A stretch of 54,941 bases of DNA, taken from positions 1-54,941 of the IMG/VR virus record IMGVR_UViG_3300010403_000008. The stretch is one strand, 5' to 3'. The notes under the pieces were generated by a model that saw only the letters and a program-made list of their open reading frames with translations, had not been told where the DNA came from and did no database searches. Made by a program: the position numbers and the translations under genes. Shown piece after piece: positions 16,097-20,640 of this stretch (its first letter is position 1; each line of letters begins with the position of its first letter). The stretch is from a virus. Its lineage: Duplodnaviria; Caudoviricetes.

Positions 16097-16501
16097 TTAC
16101 GATTTGCTGTCATCGTTATGGCGATTCATTACGGCAAATGAGTCTTCCATATCGTTCGTGATTGAATCAAGTTCGCTGAACCATTGAATTAGGTCACGAT
16201 TCCATACCCATTGCTCCCCCTTAAGGTCTCCAGTCACGAGTCTGGCTCGTCCGTTAATGTCTCCGCTGACTTCATTTACAATCCAACAACAGAAGCGTCT
16301 TGATGGAAGACTTCTGCCCTTAAGCACACTGGGATTGAAATAGAAATCACCAGAATTGCTCTTTTTAATAATGGCTGCTATTTCTTCAGGTGTTTTGTTC
16401 CAAAGCTTCTTCTCATCTTCAAAGAAGTTGGATAGCATTTTCAATTTCTTTTGTGCATGTATAAGGCTTCGTTTTACGTCTTTTGATTTATGGGTTTTCA
16501 T
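16097..16501 (-). CDS. Hypothetical protein, last gene of the inserted cassette
   Basis: 134 aa AT-rich ORF overlapping the upstream gene. Confidence 0.55.
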   Translation of the reverse strand: MKTHKSKDVKRSLIHAQKKLKMLSNFFEDEKKLWNKTPEEIAAIIKKSNSGDFYFNPSVLKGRSLPSRRFCCWIVNEVSGDINGRARLVTGDLKGEQWVWNRDLIQWFSELDSITNDMEDSFAVMNRHNDDSKS

Positions 16502-17252
16502 TGGTTGTAAAATTTCGTGCGATCAGATCAAACCGTTCCCTTCCCTCCCGATTGCCAATTAGCTGCCATCCCCTCCATGTCATTCGATGTCCATTGACTA
16601 TACTAACAAGACCATAAGTAGCGGCACATGAAATTGAGCTTTTGTATTTCTTTCCGGGTCTCCAGTTCAGGGTTTCTGGCGGAAACAGGTCAGGATTCAT
16701 GTGAACGAATCTGGTGATGTTTTTCACATAATGAATAACCCCACTGGGGTCTCTTAAAAAGCATTCTCTGGCCCTGATGTGATTTGGACTATAGCGTTTA
16801 GATTGTGGTGTGTTTCTAATCTTTCCAAGATGCAGTTCTCTTGTGCGAATCCTATTCTTTTCAGACTGAACAGCGGCCAGCCATTTCGATTCATCCCTGA
16901 ACAAGATTGGGCTGTGTCCTTTTTCCCGTTGTTGTATCCCGTGATACAGATAGGCACATTCTCTTGAGCAAGAGATATTACTTCTTGTCTTCCATGTGGT
17001 TTGGAATGTTTTACCGCATTGTACGCATACCTTTTCCTTGTCGTTTATTCGGATGGAGTTTCCGGCACACTGGGTTGAGCAATACTTTCTCCACGAATGA
17101 TTTGGTTTCTCAAGCCATTCCTTTCCGCATTTCTTACAGGTTAATGTGATACGTTTTGGTCTCATAATGAGAACCTGCATAATGTGGGATGTATGCGGGC
17201 ACGCATTTGGGGTTTGAGGAGATGGAGGGTCATGTGCTGGTTCCGTTTTCAA
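16488..17252 (-). CDS. CxxC zinc-finger repeat protein, homing-endonuclease-like DNA-binding architecture
   Basis: CKKCGKE...YCSTQC and CVQCGKTF...SCSREC repeats, with C-terminal LRDPSG..HYVKNI..F and WRGWQL. True start may be the ATG at 17165. Confidence 0.55.
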   Translation of the reverse strand: MKTEPAHDPPSPQTPNACPHTSHIMQVLIMRPKRITLTCKKCGKEWLEKPNHSWRKYCSTQCAGNSIRINDKEKVCVQCGKTFQTTWKTRSNISCSRECAYLYHGIQQREKGHSPILFRDESKWLAAVQSEKNRIRTRELHLGKIRNTPQSKRYSPNHIRARECFLRDPSGVIHYVKNITRFVHMNPDLFPPETLNWRPGKKYKSSISCAATYGLVSIVNGHRMTWRGWQLIGNREGRERFDLIARNFTTNENP

Positions 17253-17754
17253 TCTGTCTCAGTCCAGACTTGATCGACTCTTCTGCCGTCAGCCTGCGTT
17301 TAGCTGCCTCCGTAGCTGCTTCTAACGTATTGAGTGATCGTTTAGATGTTGCCATCGCAATCACTCCATGACTGCTGAACTGAGCGTGGAATTTGATTCG
17401 TTCTTCGTTCGTCATTTTATCCGGGTCTGCATCCTTGACCAACATTCTTCGGATGGTTCGTCTTGAGAGCCTGTGAATTCGTCTGGTTGCATCTGCTCCA
17501 ACCATGTGAAATTCACCAGCCTTCAGCCTGCGAATTCCTTGACCCCGCACATGGGCGAAATACTTCCCCGTCTCACGCTGAACGATTAGGATTGCACGAG
17601 ACAGAATCCATGCGTGTTTCTTGAACAATTCACGTCCCGGTGTCAGTGCCTGCAATTCAGCCCTTGTGATCAATTCGTGATGCTCAATCTTGTTTAGGTA
17701 TCGAGCGATGGTCACGGAATCAATGTTGGCCTGATGTGGGATTGCTGACTGCAT
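17230..17754 (-). CDS. Accessory protein of the Cas7-like/array cassette, possibly winged-HTH
   Basis: LITRAEL...ILSRAILIVQRETGKYFAHVRGQGIRRL; starts 6 nt after array 4. Confidence 0.65.
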   Translation of the reverse strand: MQSAIPHQANIDSVTIARYLNKIEHHELITRAELQALTPGRELFKKHAWILSRAILIVQRETGKYFAHVRGQGIRRLKAGEFHMVGADATRRIHRLSRRTIRRMLVKDADPDKMTNEERIKFHAQFSSHGVIAMATSKRSLNTLEAATEAAKRRLTAEESIKSGLRQIENGTST

Positions 17755-17760
17755 AAAATA

Positions 17761-17920
17761 GAGTGGTGTGTGGTGATTTGACTTGGGGTTATGTGCAGTG
17801 CGGTAGCTTGACGTGATCTGATTTGCGGTGCTGTGGGTTACTGTGTATTGGATTGCCGTGGCGTGAAGTGGCGTGCGTTTGATTGAGTTAGTGTGGCTTG
17901 CAGTGTTTTGGTGTGACGTG
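17761..17920 (-). repeat. Pentamer guide-like array 4: 32 units of CAM-NN (plus strand NN-KTG)
   Basis: Exact 5-nt period: gaGTG gtGTG tgGTG atTTG acTTG ggGTT atGTG caGTG...; non-coding. Confidence 0.9.
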
Positions 17921-17941
17921 GAGAGAAATTGGCCCCTAAAG

Positions 17942-18071
17942 ATGGTGTGTTGTGTCGTGCGTTGTTGTGACTTGATTTAGGGTGCAGTGGAATGCTGTGG
18001 GTTGCAGTGTAATGTTGTGACTTATCGTGCTGTGGTTTTGAGTGGAGTGGCGTGACTTGGGATGTAGTGTG
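17942..18071 (-). repeat. Pentamer guide-like array 3: 26 units
   Basis: ATGgt GTGtt GTGtc GTGcg TTGtt GTGac TTGat TTAgg GTGca GTGga...; exact 5-nt period. Confidence 0.9.
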
Positions 18072-18098
18072 GAGAAATTAAACAGCACGCAATGGGGG

Positions 18099-18228
18099 AT
18101 GGTGTGGAGTGTTGTGAGTTGGCGTGTCTTGTGTTGGCACGAATTGCGGTGTCGTGTTTTGATTTAGCGTGCAGTGTTTTGAAGTGTTGTGTGTTGCGGT
18201 GCCTTGTTGTGTCCTGATGTGTTTTGGT
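18099..18228 (-). repeat. Pentamer guide-like array 2: 26 units
   Basis: ATGgt GTGga GTGtt GTGag TTGgc GTGtc...; begins 2 nt after the Cas7-like stop codon. Confidence 0.9.
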
Positions 18229-18230
18229 GA

Positions 18231-18791
18231 TTAAATTCGTTCTAACTTGGACACTTCAAATCGACCATTAGTTCCGCCCTTCTCAGCACGGAACTGGCCC
18301 AACCCAATGAACATCCCCGCATGGTCCAAATGCTCCCGTAAAATCTTCTCGTCAATCGCATCATCCAGAACGGCGATTGTAACGGTGGTCTTCCATGAAG
18401 TCAGGGTTGGGATGCAGCGAGCAACCCGCTTTCCTGAGCCTCGTATCCCGTCTGAGTTGGCGTTGATCCAGATTGGCTTGGCATCAGCACGAGTCATCCC
18501 AAGGTCCGCATCGTCCATCACGAGTAGGCCGCTCTCGAACAGCTTCGTATAGGTTCGTTTACCCTTACCCGGAACCTGTCTGCCAAGATGCTTGGCTGCT
18601 GCACAGATGCAGAACTTCAGAGCCATAGCTGGAATGATGCACCTACCAGCCTCGTTTACGCGAAGCTTTTCGAGGTAGCAGCGAACTTCAAAATCTTCGT
18701 GGGTTTCGCGGTCTGCGCGTTTGGACGTGAATGGAGCGCCTCCCCCTAACGGGGTGACGGATTGTAAGGTTACTCGGAATTTGTTTAACAT
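18231..18791 (-). CDS. Stand-alone Cas7/RAMP-like RNA-binding protein (Vipr-like)
   Basis: RAMP hallmarks: N-terminal FRVTLQSVTPL strand, IIPAMALK (IP.S.LKG-like), and a C-terminal Gly-rich loop AGMFIGLGQFRAEKGGTNGRFEV. Confidence 0.8.
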   Translation of the reverse strand: MLNKFRVTLQSVTPLGGGAPFTSKRADRETHEDFEVRCYLEKLRVNEAGRCIIPAMALKFCICAAAKHLGRQVPGKGKRTYTKLFESGLLVMDDADLGMTRADAKPIWINANSDGIRGSGKRVARCIPTLTSWKTTVTIAVLDDAIDEKILREHLDHAGMFIGLGQFRAEKGGTNGRFEVSKLERI

Positions 18792-18910
18792 GATGGAGTG
18801 ATGTGGTGTGTTTTGGTGTGCCGTGTCTTGATGTGTCGTGTGGTGTCTTGAATTGCAGTGAAGTGAGGTAGGTTGGTTTGCTGTGCAATGGTTTGTGTTG
18901 TCGTGTCGTT
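18791..18910 (-). repeat. Pentamer guide-like array 1: 24 units, decodes to an MCP-gene target
   Basis: Minus strand AACga CACga CAAca CAAac CATtg CACag CAAac CAAcc TACct CACtt CACtg CAAtt CAAga CACca CACga CACat...; abuts the Cas7-like start codon. Confidence 0.92.
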
Positions 18911-18914
18911 TCGG

Positions 18915-19064
18915 GTCCGGTTAGACCGGACAAAAAGTCCGCTCAGGTGAAAGACCAGATCGAATGGGGCTGGTCCGGTTTCCCGGAACTGAGCGGACCG
19001 AAAGTCCAAAGTGTCAGTCTTGCGCCATTCGACCGGCTTTCACACCAGTCACGGACGAGCGGAC
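18915..19064 (-). ncRNA. Structured, potentially pseudoknotted leader RNA of the cassette
   Basis: Perfect complementary pairs: 18915-21/18925-31, 18937-46/18989-98, 18953-58/18970-75, 18960-67/19025-32 and 18947-53/19037-43. Confidence 0.55.
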
Positions 19065-19091
19065 AATCCACCACTACCAGATGTTTGTCAA
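19063..19091 (-). promoter_or_regulatory. Putative sigma70 promoter driving the leader, arrays and Cas7-like operon
   Basis: Minus strand TTGACA-N17-GATTGT. Confidence 0.5.
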
Positions 19092-19103
19092 ATTGAAATC
19101 CGT

Positions 19104-19132
19104 TTGACTTTTACTTTACCGATAATTATTGT
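19104..19132 (+). promoter_or_regulatory. Putative sigma70 promoter for the MCP operon, divergent from the cassette promoter
   Basis: TTGACT-N17-TATTGT. Confidence 0.55.
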
Positions 19133-19308
19133 GCAAAACAGCTAGGCGTAATTGGCTTTCACTAGCGGCCATCACCTGTCGTTCGGGGTGGAATAAACAA
19201 TCGAACTACAGCGTAGCGGTATGGGAACCAGAAGGTTCGCTGTTCTTCAAAAGAATCCCCAACGGAATCTCTCACGTACGAGAGAAAAACTTTTAACGAA
19301 GAACTAAA

Positions 19309-20640
19309 ATGGCTAGTACACTTTCCTGTGGGGCATTTACTCAGTACCTCGTCGATCAGCTACCTGTTTATGATAAGTTGATTTTGGAGGACATTCGTCC
19401 GATGGACGGTTGGATCGGACATGTTAAGACGGGTACGTTCGAGGCGTACTCGGGCACAGAGCATACTCTGGACCGTTTCAATCACGTGTACCCGGATACA
19501 ACCAAGGCTTGGTCCCGAACTCAGGCCAGTAATTGCATCGGAACTCCTTGTGACAAAACGGAATACTGCATTGGGTGGGGTGCGACAAGAATCACTTATT
19601 TTTTGGAAGAGCAAAGTTGGGCGACGCCATTACTTTGTTTCGATCAGGAAATGCACATCACAAAAGCAAGAGAAAATTTCCGATATATTATCGGAGGAAT
19701 TCTCAAGCCCGCCACTTCGACCATCATGTCGAACTTCCTGCGTCGTCGTGCCCTCACGATTGGCACGGGCAAGAAGTGGGTGGCCAATGCCACAATGTCT
19801 GATTTCGTGCCCACCTGGGTCACTGTAGGCGGTTCTGAACTGTATCTGGACGTGACTGTGGAACCCACTTCCCGGCTCACTCCACAAATGCTTCAGCGTC
19901 GTGTGTCCCCACTCATGCTGATGGGCTATTTCGGGAAGAACCCGTTCGGGGACCGCAAATCCATTCCTTTGATCGAACTGGTCACTGGCATGGAAACTCT
20001 GTGGGACTTGGACAAGCAGGTCTGCGACAGCAACATCTCTGGCGCATGGCGGTTCACAGAATGGACGGCAGCCAACGAGTACTGGCGGTACGGCTTCAAC
20101 GGGCAGTTGGGCAACTACGCAACCCGTGCAGACCCAATGGAGATGCGGTTCAACCGTGTTGGTCCCGTGGCTGGTGGCAAGATTCGTTTCCAGTTCATCC
20201 AGCCCTACGTGAACGTCGCATCCAGTGGGGCTGGTGGTGCCCCCGGTCTCAAGTCGATTGAGAATGAAGACTGGCAGAATGCTCGTTACTCCATCAGCTT
20301 CATCTGGCACAAGATGGCGATGGAAGCACTGGTCGCAGACGCAACCCCGGTCAATCCCGAAATGCCATTCTCGTCCCGTAACTTCGGTGGACGCTGGCAG
20401 TTCGTGAAGGACAACCTGGGTGCGTGTGAGGACGGGACAGTCATTGAGAACAAGCGCGGGAACAAGGGTCAGTTCATCAGCGACTTCAAGCTGTCGATCA
20501 GACCCATGTACACCGAATTCGCGGAAGCGATCTTCCACATGCGCAATCGGGCCTGCATCACGATCTGCCCTCCGTGTGGCACTGATCCTGGGTATCCGAC
20601 TCAGAGCTACAACAGTTGCAATCCTGACTGCACACCGTAA
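19309..20640 (+). CDS. Major capsid protein
   Basis: 443 aa, follows the scaffold (apart from the insert), strongly biased codon usage, and followed by a terminator hairpin. Confidence 0.75.
   Translation: MASTLSCGAFTQYLVDQLPVYDKLILEDIRPMDGWIGHVKTGTFEAYSGTEHTLDRFNHVYPDTTKAWSRTQASNCIGTPCDKTEYCIGWGATRITYFLEEQSWATPLLCFDQEMHITKARENFRYIIGGILKPATSTIMSNFLRRRALTIGTGKKWVANATMSDFVPTWVTVGGSELYLDVTVEPTSRLTPQMLQRRVSPLMLMGYFGKNPFGDRKSIPLIELVTGMETLWDLDKQVCDSNISGAWRFTEWTAANEYWRYGFNGQLGNYATRADPMEMRFNRVGPVAGGKIRFQFIQPYVNVASSGAGGAPGLKSIENEDWQNARYSISFIWHKMAMEALVADATPVNPEMPFSSRNFGGRWQFVKDNLGACEDGTVIENKRGNKGQFISDFKLSIRPMYTEFAEAIFHMRNRACITICPPCGTDPGYPTQSYNSCNPDCTP

What the first reader, a model, noticed from the sequence alone, without database searches (positions are those of the whole stretch)
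17776..17845. Array 4 decodes to an IS1-family transposase HTH motif ([I/M]TGIHRATIMRLG)
Plus-strand dinucleotides of units 4-17 are AT AC GG AT CA CG GC AC AT AT CG CT GG CT, giving [I/M]-T-G-[I/M]-[H/Q]-R-A-T-[I/M]-[I/M]-R-L-G-L. From memory this closely resembles the N-terminal HTH of single-ORF IS1-family transposases (..ER.TG[V/I]HRDTIMRLG[V/L]..), with one unit differing. Inference: the phage silences or blocks an insertion sequence or IS-borne cargo, so targets would extend beyond competing phages.
Basis: partly seen in the sequence, partly recalled or inferred. Interest (0 to 1): 0.82.

Follow-up and report, generated by a model that had tools for sequence, protein, structure and literature searches.

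The report
Phage VIPR guide aimed at IS1-like transposase
A soil phage carries a CRISPR-related VIPR gene-silencing system, and one of its guide RNAs spells, with one letter off, the DNA-binding motif of a widespread IS1-like jumping-gene enzyme, which suggests these phage weapons are also aimed at transposons.

Summary
Positions 17776-17845 are 14 five-base units whose variable dinucleotides read AT AC GG AT CA CG GC AC AT AT CG CT GG CT.

The locus is a VIPR system, a kind described in 2026 preprints. ORF 18231-18791(-) folds as a Cas7/Csm3-like RAMP. Four arrays of CA[C/A]+NN repeats flank it, and CAC/NN arrays are already in print.

Under the published one-base-skip rule:
- The exact 12-unit pattern has no match in three collections.
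- Relaxing five letters gives at least 120 genome stretches and 14 viral contigs.
- All 134 are in frame in ..ER[IM]TG[IV]HRDTIMRLG...
- Four such ORFs tested look IS1-like.
- The best target matches 13 of 14 units, 27 of 28 bases.
- All 134 targets have Asp (GA) where the guide has GC.
- Controls gave 0 hits.

Independent support: guides of two other VIPR loci (L159 27/30 bases, L197 25/30) match other conserved motifs of the same transposase family. The best of 37,212 shuffled windows was 24/30.

Silencing itself is inferred, not shown, and the host is unknown. Verdict: a known kind of system with a target class I did not find in the main texts I searched.

The parts
17776..17845 (-). Guide block of array A4 (units 4-17). 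Its NN dinucleotides, read with a 1-nt skip, match the HTH-coding segment of IS1-like transposases at up to 13 of 14 units.
   Evidence: units. (targets and controls). The strand is inferred as the vipr-sense strand.
17761..17930 (-). Array A4 in full: 32 units of NN+[G/T]TG on + (CA[C/A]+NN on -) plus the flank GAGAGAAATT. Units 1-2 belong to an end shared by the arrays. No target was found for units 18-32.
17940..18079 (-). Array A3, 26 units plus the flank GAGAAATT. No target found.
18097..18236 (-). Array A2, 26 units. It abuts the vipr stop codon. No target found.
18231..18791 (-). vipr: a 186-aa RAMP (Cas7/Csm3-like) protein, the predicted vrRNA-binding filament subunit.
   Evidence: AF2 model with pLDDT 91.1. 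Foldseek top hits are chains of type III-A Csm and type VII CRISPR complexes, E 4e-8. 50 homologs. 330 relatives in IMG/VR. No Pfam family. phrog_4652, function unknown.
18791..18915 (-). Array A1, about 25 units, directly upstream of vipr. Its units 5-24 match ORF443 alleles of related phages.
17230..17754 (-). ORF174, which starts 7 nt after A4. Candidate accessory (vap-like) gene with no family assignment.
   Evidence: no family. Homologs lie next to vipr in 5 of 80 relative loci, including L138 and L159.
18912..19012 (-). Conserved structured element next to A1. Function unknown.
   Evidence: Conserved in L001. Fold of -43.4 kcal/mol, z -4.4 on the - strand. No Rfam match.
19599..19676 (+). 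Site inside ORF443 (19309-20640) that array A1 matches imperfectly: 14 of 20 units, with the skipped bases on wobble positions.

Best explanation
The region 17761-18915 is a VIPR locus (Viral Interference Programmable Repeat) of the non-canonical CAC/NN type. It holds a Cas7-like Vipr protein gene and four vrRNA arrays, most likely transcribed from the minus strand together with vipr. By the published mechanism, one Vipr protomer binds each 5-nt repeat and hides the fixed trinucleotide. The two variable bases then pair with double-stranded DNA while every third target base is skipped, and binding represses transcription. The 14 units at 17776-17845 form the 3'-proximal guide block of array A4. 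They are complementary, with skips on codon wobble positions, to the segment encoding the helix-turn-helix motif (..[IM]TG[IV]HRDTIMRLG..) at about codons 29-42 of a subfamily of single-ORF IS1-like DDE transposases. These genes are common and multi-copy in soil Acidobacteriota, Verrucomicrobiota and Alphaproteobacteria. The likely effect is that the phage's Vipr-vrRNA filament sits on the 5' part of the transposase gene and shuts it off, immobilising the element. Because only codon positions 1-2 of a near-invariant motif are read, one guide would cover many diverged copies. Shown here: the anatomy, the RAMP fold, the sequence match and its enrichment over controls, and independent guides against the same family. 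Inferred: the transcribed strand, tolerance of the single mismatch, repression, and the benefit to the phage.
For: (1) System identity. The fold is Cas7/Csm3-like. Five-nt arrays flank the vipr homolog in most of 80 relative loci; 5 of the 80 gave no segment. Relatives read GAC/NN, CAC/NN or CGC/NN on the vipr-sense strand. GAC/NN and CAC/NN VIPR arrays are in print (bioRxiv 10.64898/2026.10.21.760802, passages read). The one-base-skip rule and the silencing are in 10.64898/2026.04.26.720920 (sections 4, 20, 27 read).
(2) Match. My estimate of the chance expectation is about 0.1. All 134 hits are in frame. The best is 27 of 28 bases (G002).
(3) Controls. The reversed pattern hit 0 of 301 genomes against 6 of 301 for the real one. 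A shuffled-unit pattern gave 0 against 14 in viral contigs. On 29 family members chosen by protein similarity only, A4 windows reach 26/28 bases, while the best of 8,550 shuffled windows is 22/28.
(4) Independent loci. The single ~17-unit guide of L159 matches the reverse strand of the conserved ..STSYVERQNLTLRM.. motif at 13/15 units (27/30 bases), with skips on wobble positions. A guide of L197 matches ..VDYAQIVKVF.. at 25/30. None of 37,212 shuffled 15-unit windows exceeded 24/30.
(5) Position. The block begins one unit after the shared end units of the array. On the vipr-sense strand it is the 3'-proximal part, where the structure paper sees assembly and pairing start (10.64898/2026.04.26.720927, passages).
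(6) Precedent. SUSP1 vrRNAs target the conserved catalytic core of a satellite's excision recombinase, wobble-aligned (10.64898/2026.10.15.759431, passages).
(7) The arrays look active in the usual way. A1 matches ORF443 alleles of related phages at up to 16/20 units. Of 5 complete related genomes, 4 show no Vipr match and 1 shows only a distant one (30% identity).
Against: No target matches perfectly. The exact 12-unit pattern gave 0 hits in viral contigs, genome contigs and metagenome contigs. A pattern that fixes the guide's GC and relaxes four other letters also gave 0 in metagenome contigs. All 134 targets have GA there. The mismatch would be a purine-purine or pyrimidine-pyrimidine clash, not a wobble pair, and it lies mid-guide. 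The papers' main texts give no mismatch-tolerance data that I could find. Only 14 of the array's 32 units match. The closest relative (L001/L138, Vipr 92% identical) shows no IS1-directed guide. 40 further relative loci added none, so such guides are rare: this window plus one clear and one marginal case among 101 relative loci. The host is unknown and Vipr was not found in 301 Acidobacteriota genomes. None of 5 related phage genomes carries the IS1-like gene. The 134-target set was selected with a pattern derived from the guide, so its conservation figures at the read positions are circular. There are no RNA data.
Confidence: 0.65

Rival explanations
1. The real target is an unsampled gene: a homolog with the same HTH, for example a transposase-derived regulator or mobilisation enzyme of a rival phage, satellite or plasmid, that carries Ala at the mismatched codon. 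On this view the chromosomal IS1-like genes are only look-alikes.
For: The guide differs from all 134 known targets at the same base. The published natural targets are phages, satellites and other VIPR loci. 14 IMG/VR contigs do carry the IS1-like gene. A1 of the same locus targets rival phages.
Against: No Ala variant exists in any of the three collections. The Asp is invariant in the hits. Guides of L159 and L197 match catalytic-domain motifs of the same full-length transposases, not HTH-only proteins. Five complete related phages lack the gene.
Confidence: 0.17
2. The resemblance is a coincidence, or the block is a decayed guide that no longer acts on IS1-like genes.
For: With about 1e12 database positions and about 60 possible 14-unit windows, a 27/28 match to some sequence is not astronomically unlikely; by my estimate up to about 0.1 if every position counts as independent. 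The mismatch is central. Half of the array has no target. The closest relative lacks the guide.
Against: The match is to a family with more than 130 copies, not to a singleton. Words that abundant are at most about 1% of the database, which lowers my chance estimate to 1e-3 or less. It is in frame with skips on wobble positions. It starts one unit after the array's shared end units. Two other VIPR loci hit the same family beyond all 37,212 shuffled controls.
Confidence: 0.13
3. The arrays are not guide RNAs. They would instead be protein-binding repeats such as TRAP-type triplet repeats, iterons or a replication element, and the decoding would be meaningless.
For: Triplets spaced by two bases also occur in TRAP-binding RNAs (recalled, not tested). 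There are no expression data for this locus.
Against: The arrays flank a Cas7-like RAMP, as in most of 80 relative loci. The layout matches published VIPR loci. Two arrays have wobble-aligned coding matches far above shuffled controls.
Confidence: 0.03

Closest known systems
VIPR systems with non-canonical CAC/NN or GAC/NN repeats (bioRxiv 10.64898/2026.10.21.760802; types defined in 10.64898/2026.04.26.720920)
   Same: A small stand-alone Cas7-like Vipr gene flanked by tandem 5-nt repeats made of a fixed trinucleotide plus a variable NN. It is phage-borne. There is one array upstream and three downstream of vipr, a count that recalls the SUSP1 layout.
   Different: The arrays are long: 24-32 units, against 9-16 (type II) or about 10 repeats in print. 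No long structured 3' tail lies between arrays, only 21-27-nt spacers sharing AATTTCTC. I could not assign the type (I-VII), because the figures and supplements were not readable.
SUSP1 type II VIPR targeting the satellite excision recombinase (bioRxiv 10.64898/2026.10.15.759431)
   Same: The guide reads codon positions 1-2 of a near-invariant motif in the enzyme that a mobile element needs in order to move. Wobble positions are skipped, so synonymous drift cannot give escape.
   Different: The target here is a DDE transposase of an IS1-like element resident in bacterial chromosomes, not a serine recombinase of a phage satellite. The target motif is the HTH, not the catalytic core, although L159's guide does hit the DDE region. 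Nothing here has been shown experimentally.
Class 1 CRISPR-Cas backbone (Cas7/Csm3 filaments on crRNA)
   Same: A RAMP fold, oligomerisation along a guide RNA, and periodic interruption of base pairing.
   Different: There are no CRISPR repeats or spacers and no cas1/cas2. The guide is written as dinucleotides every 5 nt. The target is read 2 of every 3 bases.
IS1 family insertion sequences (the target)
   Same: A Pfam DDE_Tnp_IS1 domain, an N-terminal HTH, a single ORF of about 280-300 aa, and multiple copies per genome.
   Different: The score is below NCBIfam's IS1 cutoff. No InsA-type zinc finger is seen by eye. No terminal inverted repeats of 14 nt or more were found in 4 loci. A conserved ~100-aa downstream ORF is present in 58 of 134 loci.

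Membership tests
VIPR system | Vipr protein: a single-RRM RAMP (Cas7-like) with a glycine-rich loop | tested here: met
   AF2 pLDDT 91.1, pTM 0.84. Foldseek top hits are chains of type III-A Csm and type VII CRISPR complexes, E 4e-8, prob 1.00. Invariant glycines lie near the C-terminus.
VIPR system | Tandem 5-nt repeats (fixed trinucleotide plus variable NN) next to vipr | tested here: met
   Four arrays. The same association holds in most of 80 relative loci; 5 gave no segment. CAC/NN and GAC/NN are named in print.
VIPR system | Guides match targets under the 1-nt-skip rule at 80% or more of NN units, with skips on wobble positions | tested here: met
   A4 units 4-17 match 13/14 units (93%). 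A1 units 5-24 match 16/20 units (80%) in related phages. Both are wobble-aligned. No target was found for A2, A3 or A4 units 18-32.
VIPR system | vrRNAs are expressed and bound by Vipr | not testable with these tools
   No RNA run was listed for this DNA.
VIPR system | An adjacent accessory vap gene | tested here: inconclusive
   ORF174 follows A4. It has homologs beside vipr in 5 of 80 loci but no family assignment. The HNH-like ORF254 is not conserved beside vipr.
IS1 family transposase (the target gene) | DDE_Tnp_IS1 catalytic domain | tested here: met
   PF03400 is above its gathering score in 3 of 4 proteins (30.5, 30.0 and 37.4 bits against 24.1). The fourth scores 21.6.
IS1 family transposase (the target gene) | NCBIfam equivalog NF033558 at its curated cutoff | tested here: not met
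   It is the best-scoring family in 4 of 4, but at 49-71 bits against a cutoff of 100. I therefore write 'IS1-like'.
IS1 family transposase (the target gene) | Terminal inverted repeats bounding a short element | tested here: inconclusive
   No flanking inverted repeat of 14 nt or more in 4 loci. Shorter repeats were not examined.
IS1 family transposase (the target gene) | Multiple copies per genome, as expected for a mobile element | tested here: met
   52 of 301 Acidobacteriota genomes have matches, up to 5 per genome. G135 has three at 2,555-bp spacing. The tally includes the unpublished genome G157.

The most novel reading that the evidence does not exclude
Phage VIPR systems police bacterial transposons as well as rival phages. 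A wobble-blind guide written against the invariant HTH of an IS1-like transposase family lets one phage silence diverged copies of that element across hosts. At least two other VIPR phages have independently evolved guides against other invariant motifs of the same transposase. This would be a virus-encoded, RNA-guided anti-transposon function.
Probability: 0.5. Interest if true: 0.65.

Novelty: new member of a known kind. Interest (0 to 1): 0.5.

Why it matters
VIPR was reported in 2026 as a weapon of phages against other phages and satellites. If guides are also aimed at insertion-sequence transposases, its natural target range includes transposable elements of the bacterial chromosome. The logic would be the same as already shown for a satellite recombinase: read only the amino-acid-determining bases of a motif the enzyme cannot change. 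That would give a concrete, testable case of a virus suppressing transposition, and a natural example of one guide covering a whole diverged gene family.

Tried and rejected
- Exact one-base-skip patterns gave 0 hits: A4 units 4-15 in viral contigs, units 5-16 in genome contigs and in metagenome contigs, the pattern that fixes GC and relaxes four letters in metagenome contigs, and A4 units 20-30 in viral contigs.
- The first 14 variable units of A3 and of A2, with up to 3 mismatches, gave 0 hits in 5 complete related phage genomes.
- Other guide windows against the 120 IS1-bearing genome loci and the 14 viral loci scored no better than shuffled guides.
- Host search: Vipr was not found in 301 Acidobacteriota genomes, apart from two E~1e-3 hits that I take as noise. 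There was no blastn or tblastn match of phage genes in the 'phages' collection.
- Rfam found nothing meaningful in 17600-19400. The promoter and terminator scan did not exceed its shuffles, so it did not settle the strand.
- No RNA holder was listed among the sequencing runs.
- My initial TRAP-like RNA-wrapping idea was dropped once the RAMP fold and the VIPR papers were in hand.
- Supplements of the VIPR papers (target tables data S3, fig. S17 repeat logos) were closed. They may already list transposase targets or this repeat type.

Full report
**1. Observation**

On the + strand, 17761-17920 reads as 32 five-base units of two variable bases followed by GTG or TTG, with a few deviants. Units 4-17 are exactly 17776-17845.

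Three more arrays of the same kind lie at 17940-18069, 18097-18226 and 18791-18915. In + strand reading, each array starts with a shared ..(A/G)TG-GT-GTG. Arrays A4 and A3 end in GAGA(G)AAATT and A2 ends in GTGATTAAATT.

**2. What the locus is**

A full-text search led to four 2026 preprints on VIPR systems. I read the following:
- 10.64898/2026.04.26.720920: sections 4, 20 and 27, plus term passages.
- 10.64898/2026.04.26.720927: outline, abstract and passages.
- 10.64898/2026.10.15.759431: passages.
- 10.64898/2026.10.21.760802: passages.

These papers describe a small RAMP protein, Vipr, that polymerises on a vrRNA made of GGY/NN pentamers. The NN dinucleotides pair with double-stranded DNA while every third target base is skipped, usually the codon wobble base. 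Binding silences transcription.

Here the 186-aa ORF 18231-18791(-) sits between the arrays.
- It has no Pfam family.
- It has 50 homologs in the protein collection and 330 relatives in IMG/VR.
- It gives a confident model (pLDDT 91.1).
- The best structural matches of that model are chains of type III-A Csm and type VII CRISPR complexes (E 4e-8).
- In 80 relative loci, 5-nt periodic arrays were detected beside or near the homolog in all but 5.
- On the vipr-sense strand these arrays read GAC/NN, CAC/NN or CGC/NN.

In Pseudomonas phage LESphi2, the only hit in the phage collection, GGC/NN repeats lie on the vipr-sense strand upstream of the gene. The October 2026 preprint names 'GAC/NN or CAC/NN' as non-canonical VIPR repeats.

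I therefore read the window's arrays as CA[C/A]/NN vrRNA genes on the minus strand, co-oriented with vipr and packed between vipr and ORF174. The strand is an inference. Promoter and terminator scans and Rfam did not help, and no RNA run is listed.

**3. Testing the IS1 reading**

The dsDNA target pattern NNxNNx is the same whichever strand is transcribed.

*Collection scans.* The exact pattern for 12 units found nothing in IMG/VR, in 185,579 species genomes or in the metagenome contigs. I then relaxed five letters to allow Val or Ile, Asp/Glu or Ala, and the alternative Arg and Leu codon families.
- I estimate about 0.1 hits by chance from the number of specified bases. This is my own arithmetic, not a tool result.
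- All 134 hits are in frame and read ..SIRSIER[IM]TG[IV]HRDTIMRLG[VLA]...
- The motif begins about 29 codons after the start in most of them.

*What the target gene is.*
- The ORFs are mostly 275-315 aa, with many truncated or fused frames.
- Of four tested, three pass Pfam's DDE_Tnp_IS1 cutoff.
- All four have NCBIfam 'IS1 family transposase' as their best family, but below its cutoff. Hence I write 'IS1-like'.
- The family occurs in 52 of 301 sampled Acidobacteriota genomes, with up to five matches per genome. This tally includes one unpublished genome, G157, whose locus I did not analyse.
- Record titles of the hits are mostly soil and peat MAGs of Acidobacteriota, Verrucomicrobiota and Alphaproteobacteria.
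- The one run that fully holds the window's DNA is labelled a soil metagenome and may be its own source.

*How good the match is.*
- Over the 134 sites, units 4-17 match at 9 (2 sites), 10 (28), 11 (70), 12 (33) and 13 (1) of 14 units.
- The best, in a Verrucomicrobiia MAG (L068/G002), has one mismatch in 28 specified bases.
- Unit 10 is GA (Asp) in 134 of 134 sites, against GC in the guide.
- A metagenome scan that fixed GC and relaxed four other letters found nothing. No Ala variant is known in these collections.
- Units 1-3 and 18-32 do not match.
- At the skipped positions, mean pairwise identity among the sites is 0.51, against 0.94 at the read positions. The latter figure is inflated, because the search pattern fixed most read positions.

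*Controls.*
- The tool's reversed-pattern control hit 0 of 301 genomes, against 6 of 301 for the real pattern with up to 3 mismatches.
- A unit-shuffled degenerate pattern gave 0 hits, against 14 in IMG/VR.
- On 29 family members picked by protein similarity alone, 6 have at least 11 of 14 units.
- On those same 29, A4 windows reach 26 of 28 bases, while 8,550 shuffled windows never exceed 22.

The guide thus fits one subfamily. Other subfamilies have a diverged HTH.

**4. Independent evidence**

I extracted every well-formed guide window from the relative loci and slid it, with the one-base skip, over the 134 IS1-like ORFs.

With 12-unit windows:
- Six real windows reach 21/24 or more, out of 2,560.
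- Only 2 of 64,000 shuffled windows reach that score.

With 15-unit windows (3,101 windows from 101 loci):
- L159 reaches 27/30 and L197 reaches 25/30.
- The maximum of 37,212 shuffled windows is 24/30.

L159's hit covers essentially its whole ~17-unit guide. It lies on the reverse strand of ..ISTSYVERQNLTLRM.., a conserved motif of the transposase core, with the skipped bases on wobble positions. L197's hit lies on ..VDYAQIVKVF...

L159 is also one of only 5 of 80 loci that share an ORF174-like neighbour with the window. Forty further loci added no case. The closest relative (L001/L138, Vipr 92% identical) has no such guide.

If the vrRNAs are vipr-sense, all three guides are antisense to the transposase mRNA.

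**5. The rest of the locus behaves like a normal VIPR**

- A1 (units 5-24) matches a site in the neighbouring gene ORF443 of the phage itself at 32 of 40 bases, with skips on wobble positions. The best of 2,000 shuffles is 28.
- The alleles in 14 related IMG/VR phages match at 12-16 of 20 units, against 14 for the phage's own copy. Twelve of those units were fixed by the search pattern.
- Of five complete related genomes, four have no Vipr match and one has only a distant one.
- None of the five carries the IS1-like gene, and the window has none either.
- The A4 target therefore lies outside this phage group.

**6. Mechanism**

Shown here:
- the RAMP fold;
- the repeat anatomy and its conservation with the protein;
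- the sequence relation to the IS1-like HTH, and its enrichment over controls.

Taken from the preprints:
- one protomer binds per repeat;
- NN pairs with the target under a one-base skip;
- binding represses transcription on either strand;
- engagement proceeds 3'-to-5' along the vrRNA.

Inferred:
- transcription of the minus strand;
- tolerance of the central mismatch;
- repression of the transposase;
- the benefit to the phage, for example fewer IS insertions into phage DNA or immobilising a competing element. Fourteen viral contigs do carry the gene.

**7. Novelty**

The system, the CAC/NN repeat type and the idea of targeting an invariant motif of a mobility enzyme are all in print. The main texts I searched for 'transpos', 'insertion sequence' and 'IS1' name no transposase target. 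An earlier-findings search for VIPR, guide and transposase together found none. The papers' supplements were closed and could hold such targets.

I rate this a new member of a known kind, with a target class I did not find reported and moderate interest.

Noticed in passing
window 18791-18915 versus 19599-19676 (ORF443, 19309-20640): Array A1 matches the phage's own neighbouring gene at 14/20 units (32/40 bases, against a shuffle maximum of 28), wobble-aligned. Alleles in related phages match at up to 16/20. In 4 of 5 complete related genomes no Vipr match was found. It looks like a guide against rivals' copies of a flanking gene, with the phage's own copy partly diverged.
   Followed up: partly
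window 18912-19012: A 100-nt element next to A1 is conserved in the IMG/VR relative L001. It folds into a three-way junction plus a hairpin (-43.4 kcal/mol, z -4.4 on the minus strand). It has no Rfam match and its function is unknown.
   Followed up: partly
L002-L137 (IS1-like loci), e.g. L002:4999-5304, L008:2146-2478: In 58 of 134 loci the IS1-like gene is followed, on the same strand, by a conserved ~100-aa ORF with no Pfam family. A small RHH-like ORF follows in 9 loci. Seventeen loci share a divergent ~300-aa upstream ORF. The element may be more than a plain IS.
   Followed up: partly
G135:C2:984-6897: Three identical IS1-like matches lie 2,555 bp apart on one contig, which points to a tandemly repeated unit.
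   Followed up: no
L159:2712-2796 and L197:2336-2410: Guides of two other IMG/VR VIPR loci match conserved catalytic-domain motifs of the same IS1-like family (27/30 and 25/30 bases).
   Followed up: yes
L294:8569-8619: Units 20-29 of A4 match 9 of 10 units in a non-coding, itself 5-nt-periodic stretch of a related phage contig, at about the position where that phage's own arrays would lie. It could be chance in low-complexity sequence or targeting of a rival's array. Unexplained.
   Followed up: no
window 16488-17252 (-): The 254-aa ORF downstream of ORF174 has weak HNH-endonuclease PHROG hits (best E 5.6e-7). No homolog lies beside vipr in 80 relative loci, so it is probably not part of the system.
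   Followed up: partly
G306:C1:26500-26898: One related complete phage that lacks a close Vipr has a distant RAMP-like match (30% identity, E 6e-7) inside a 287-aa frame.
   Followed up: no
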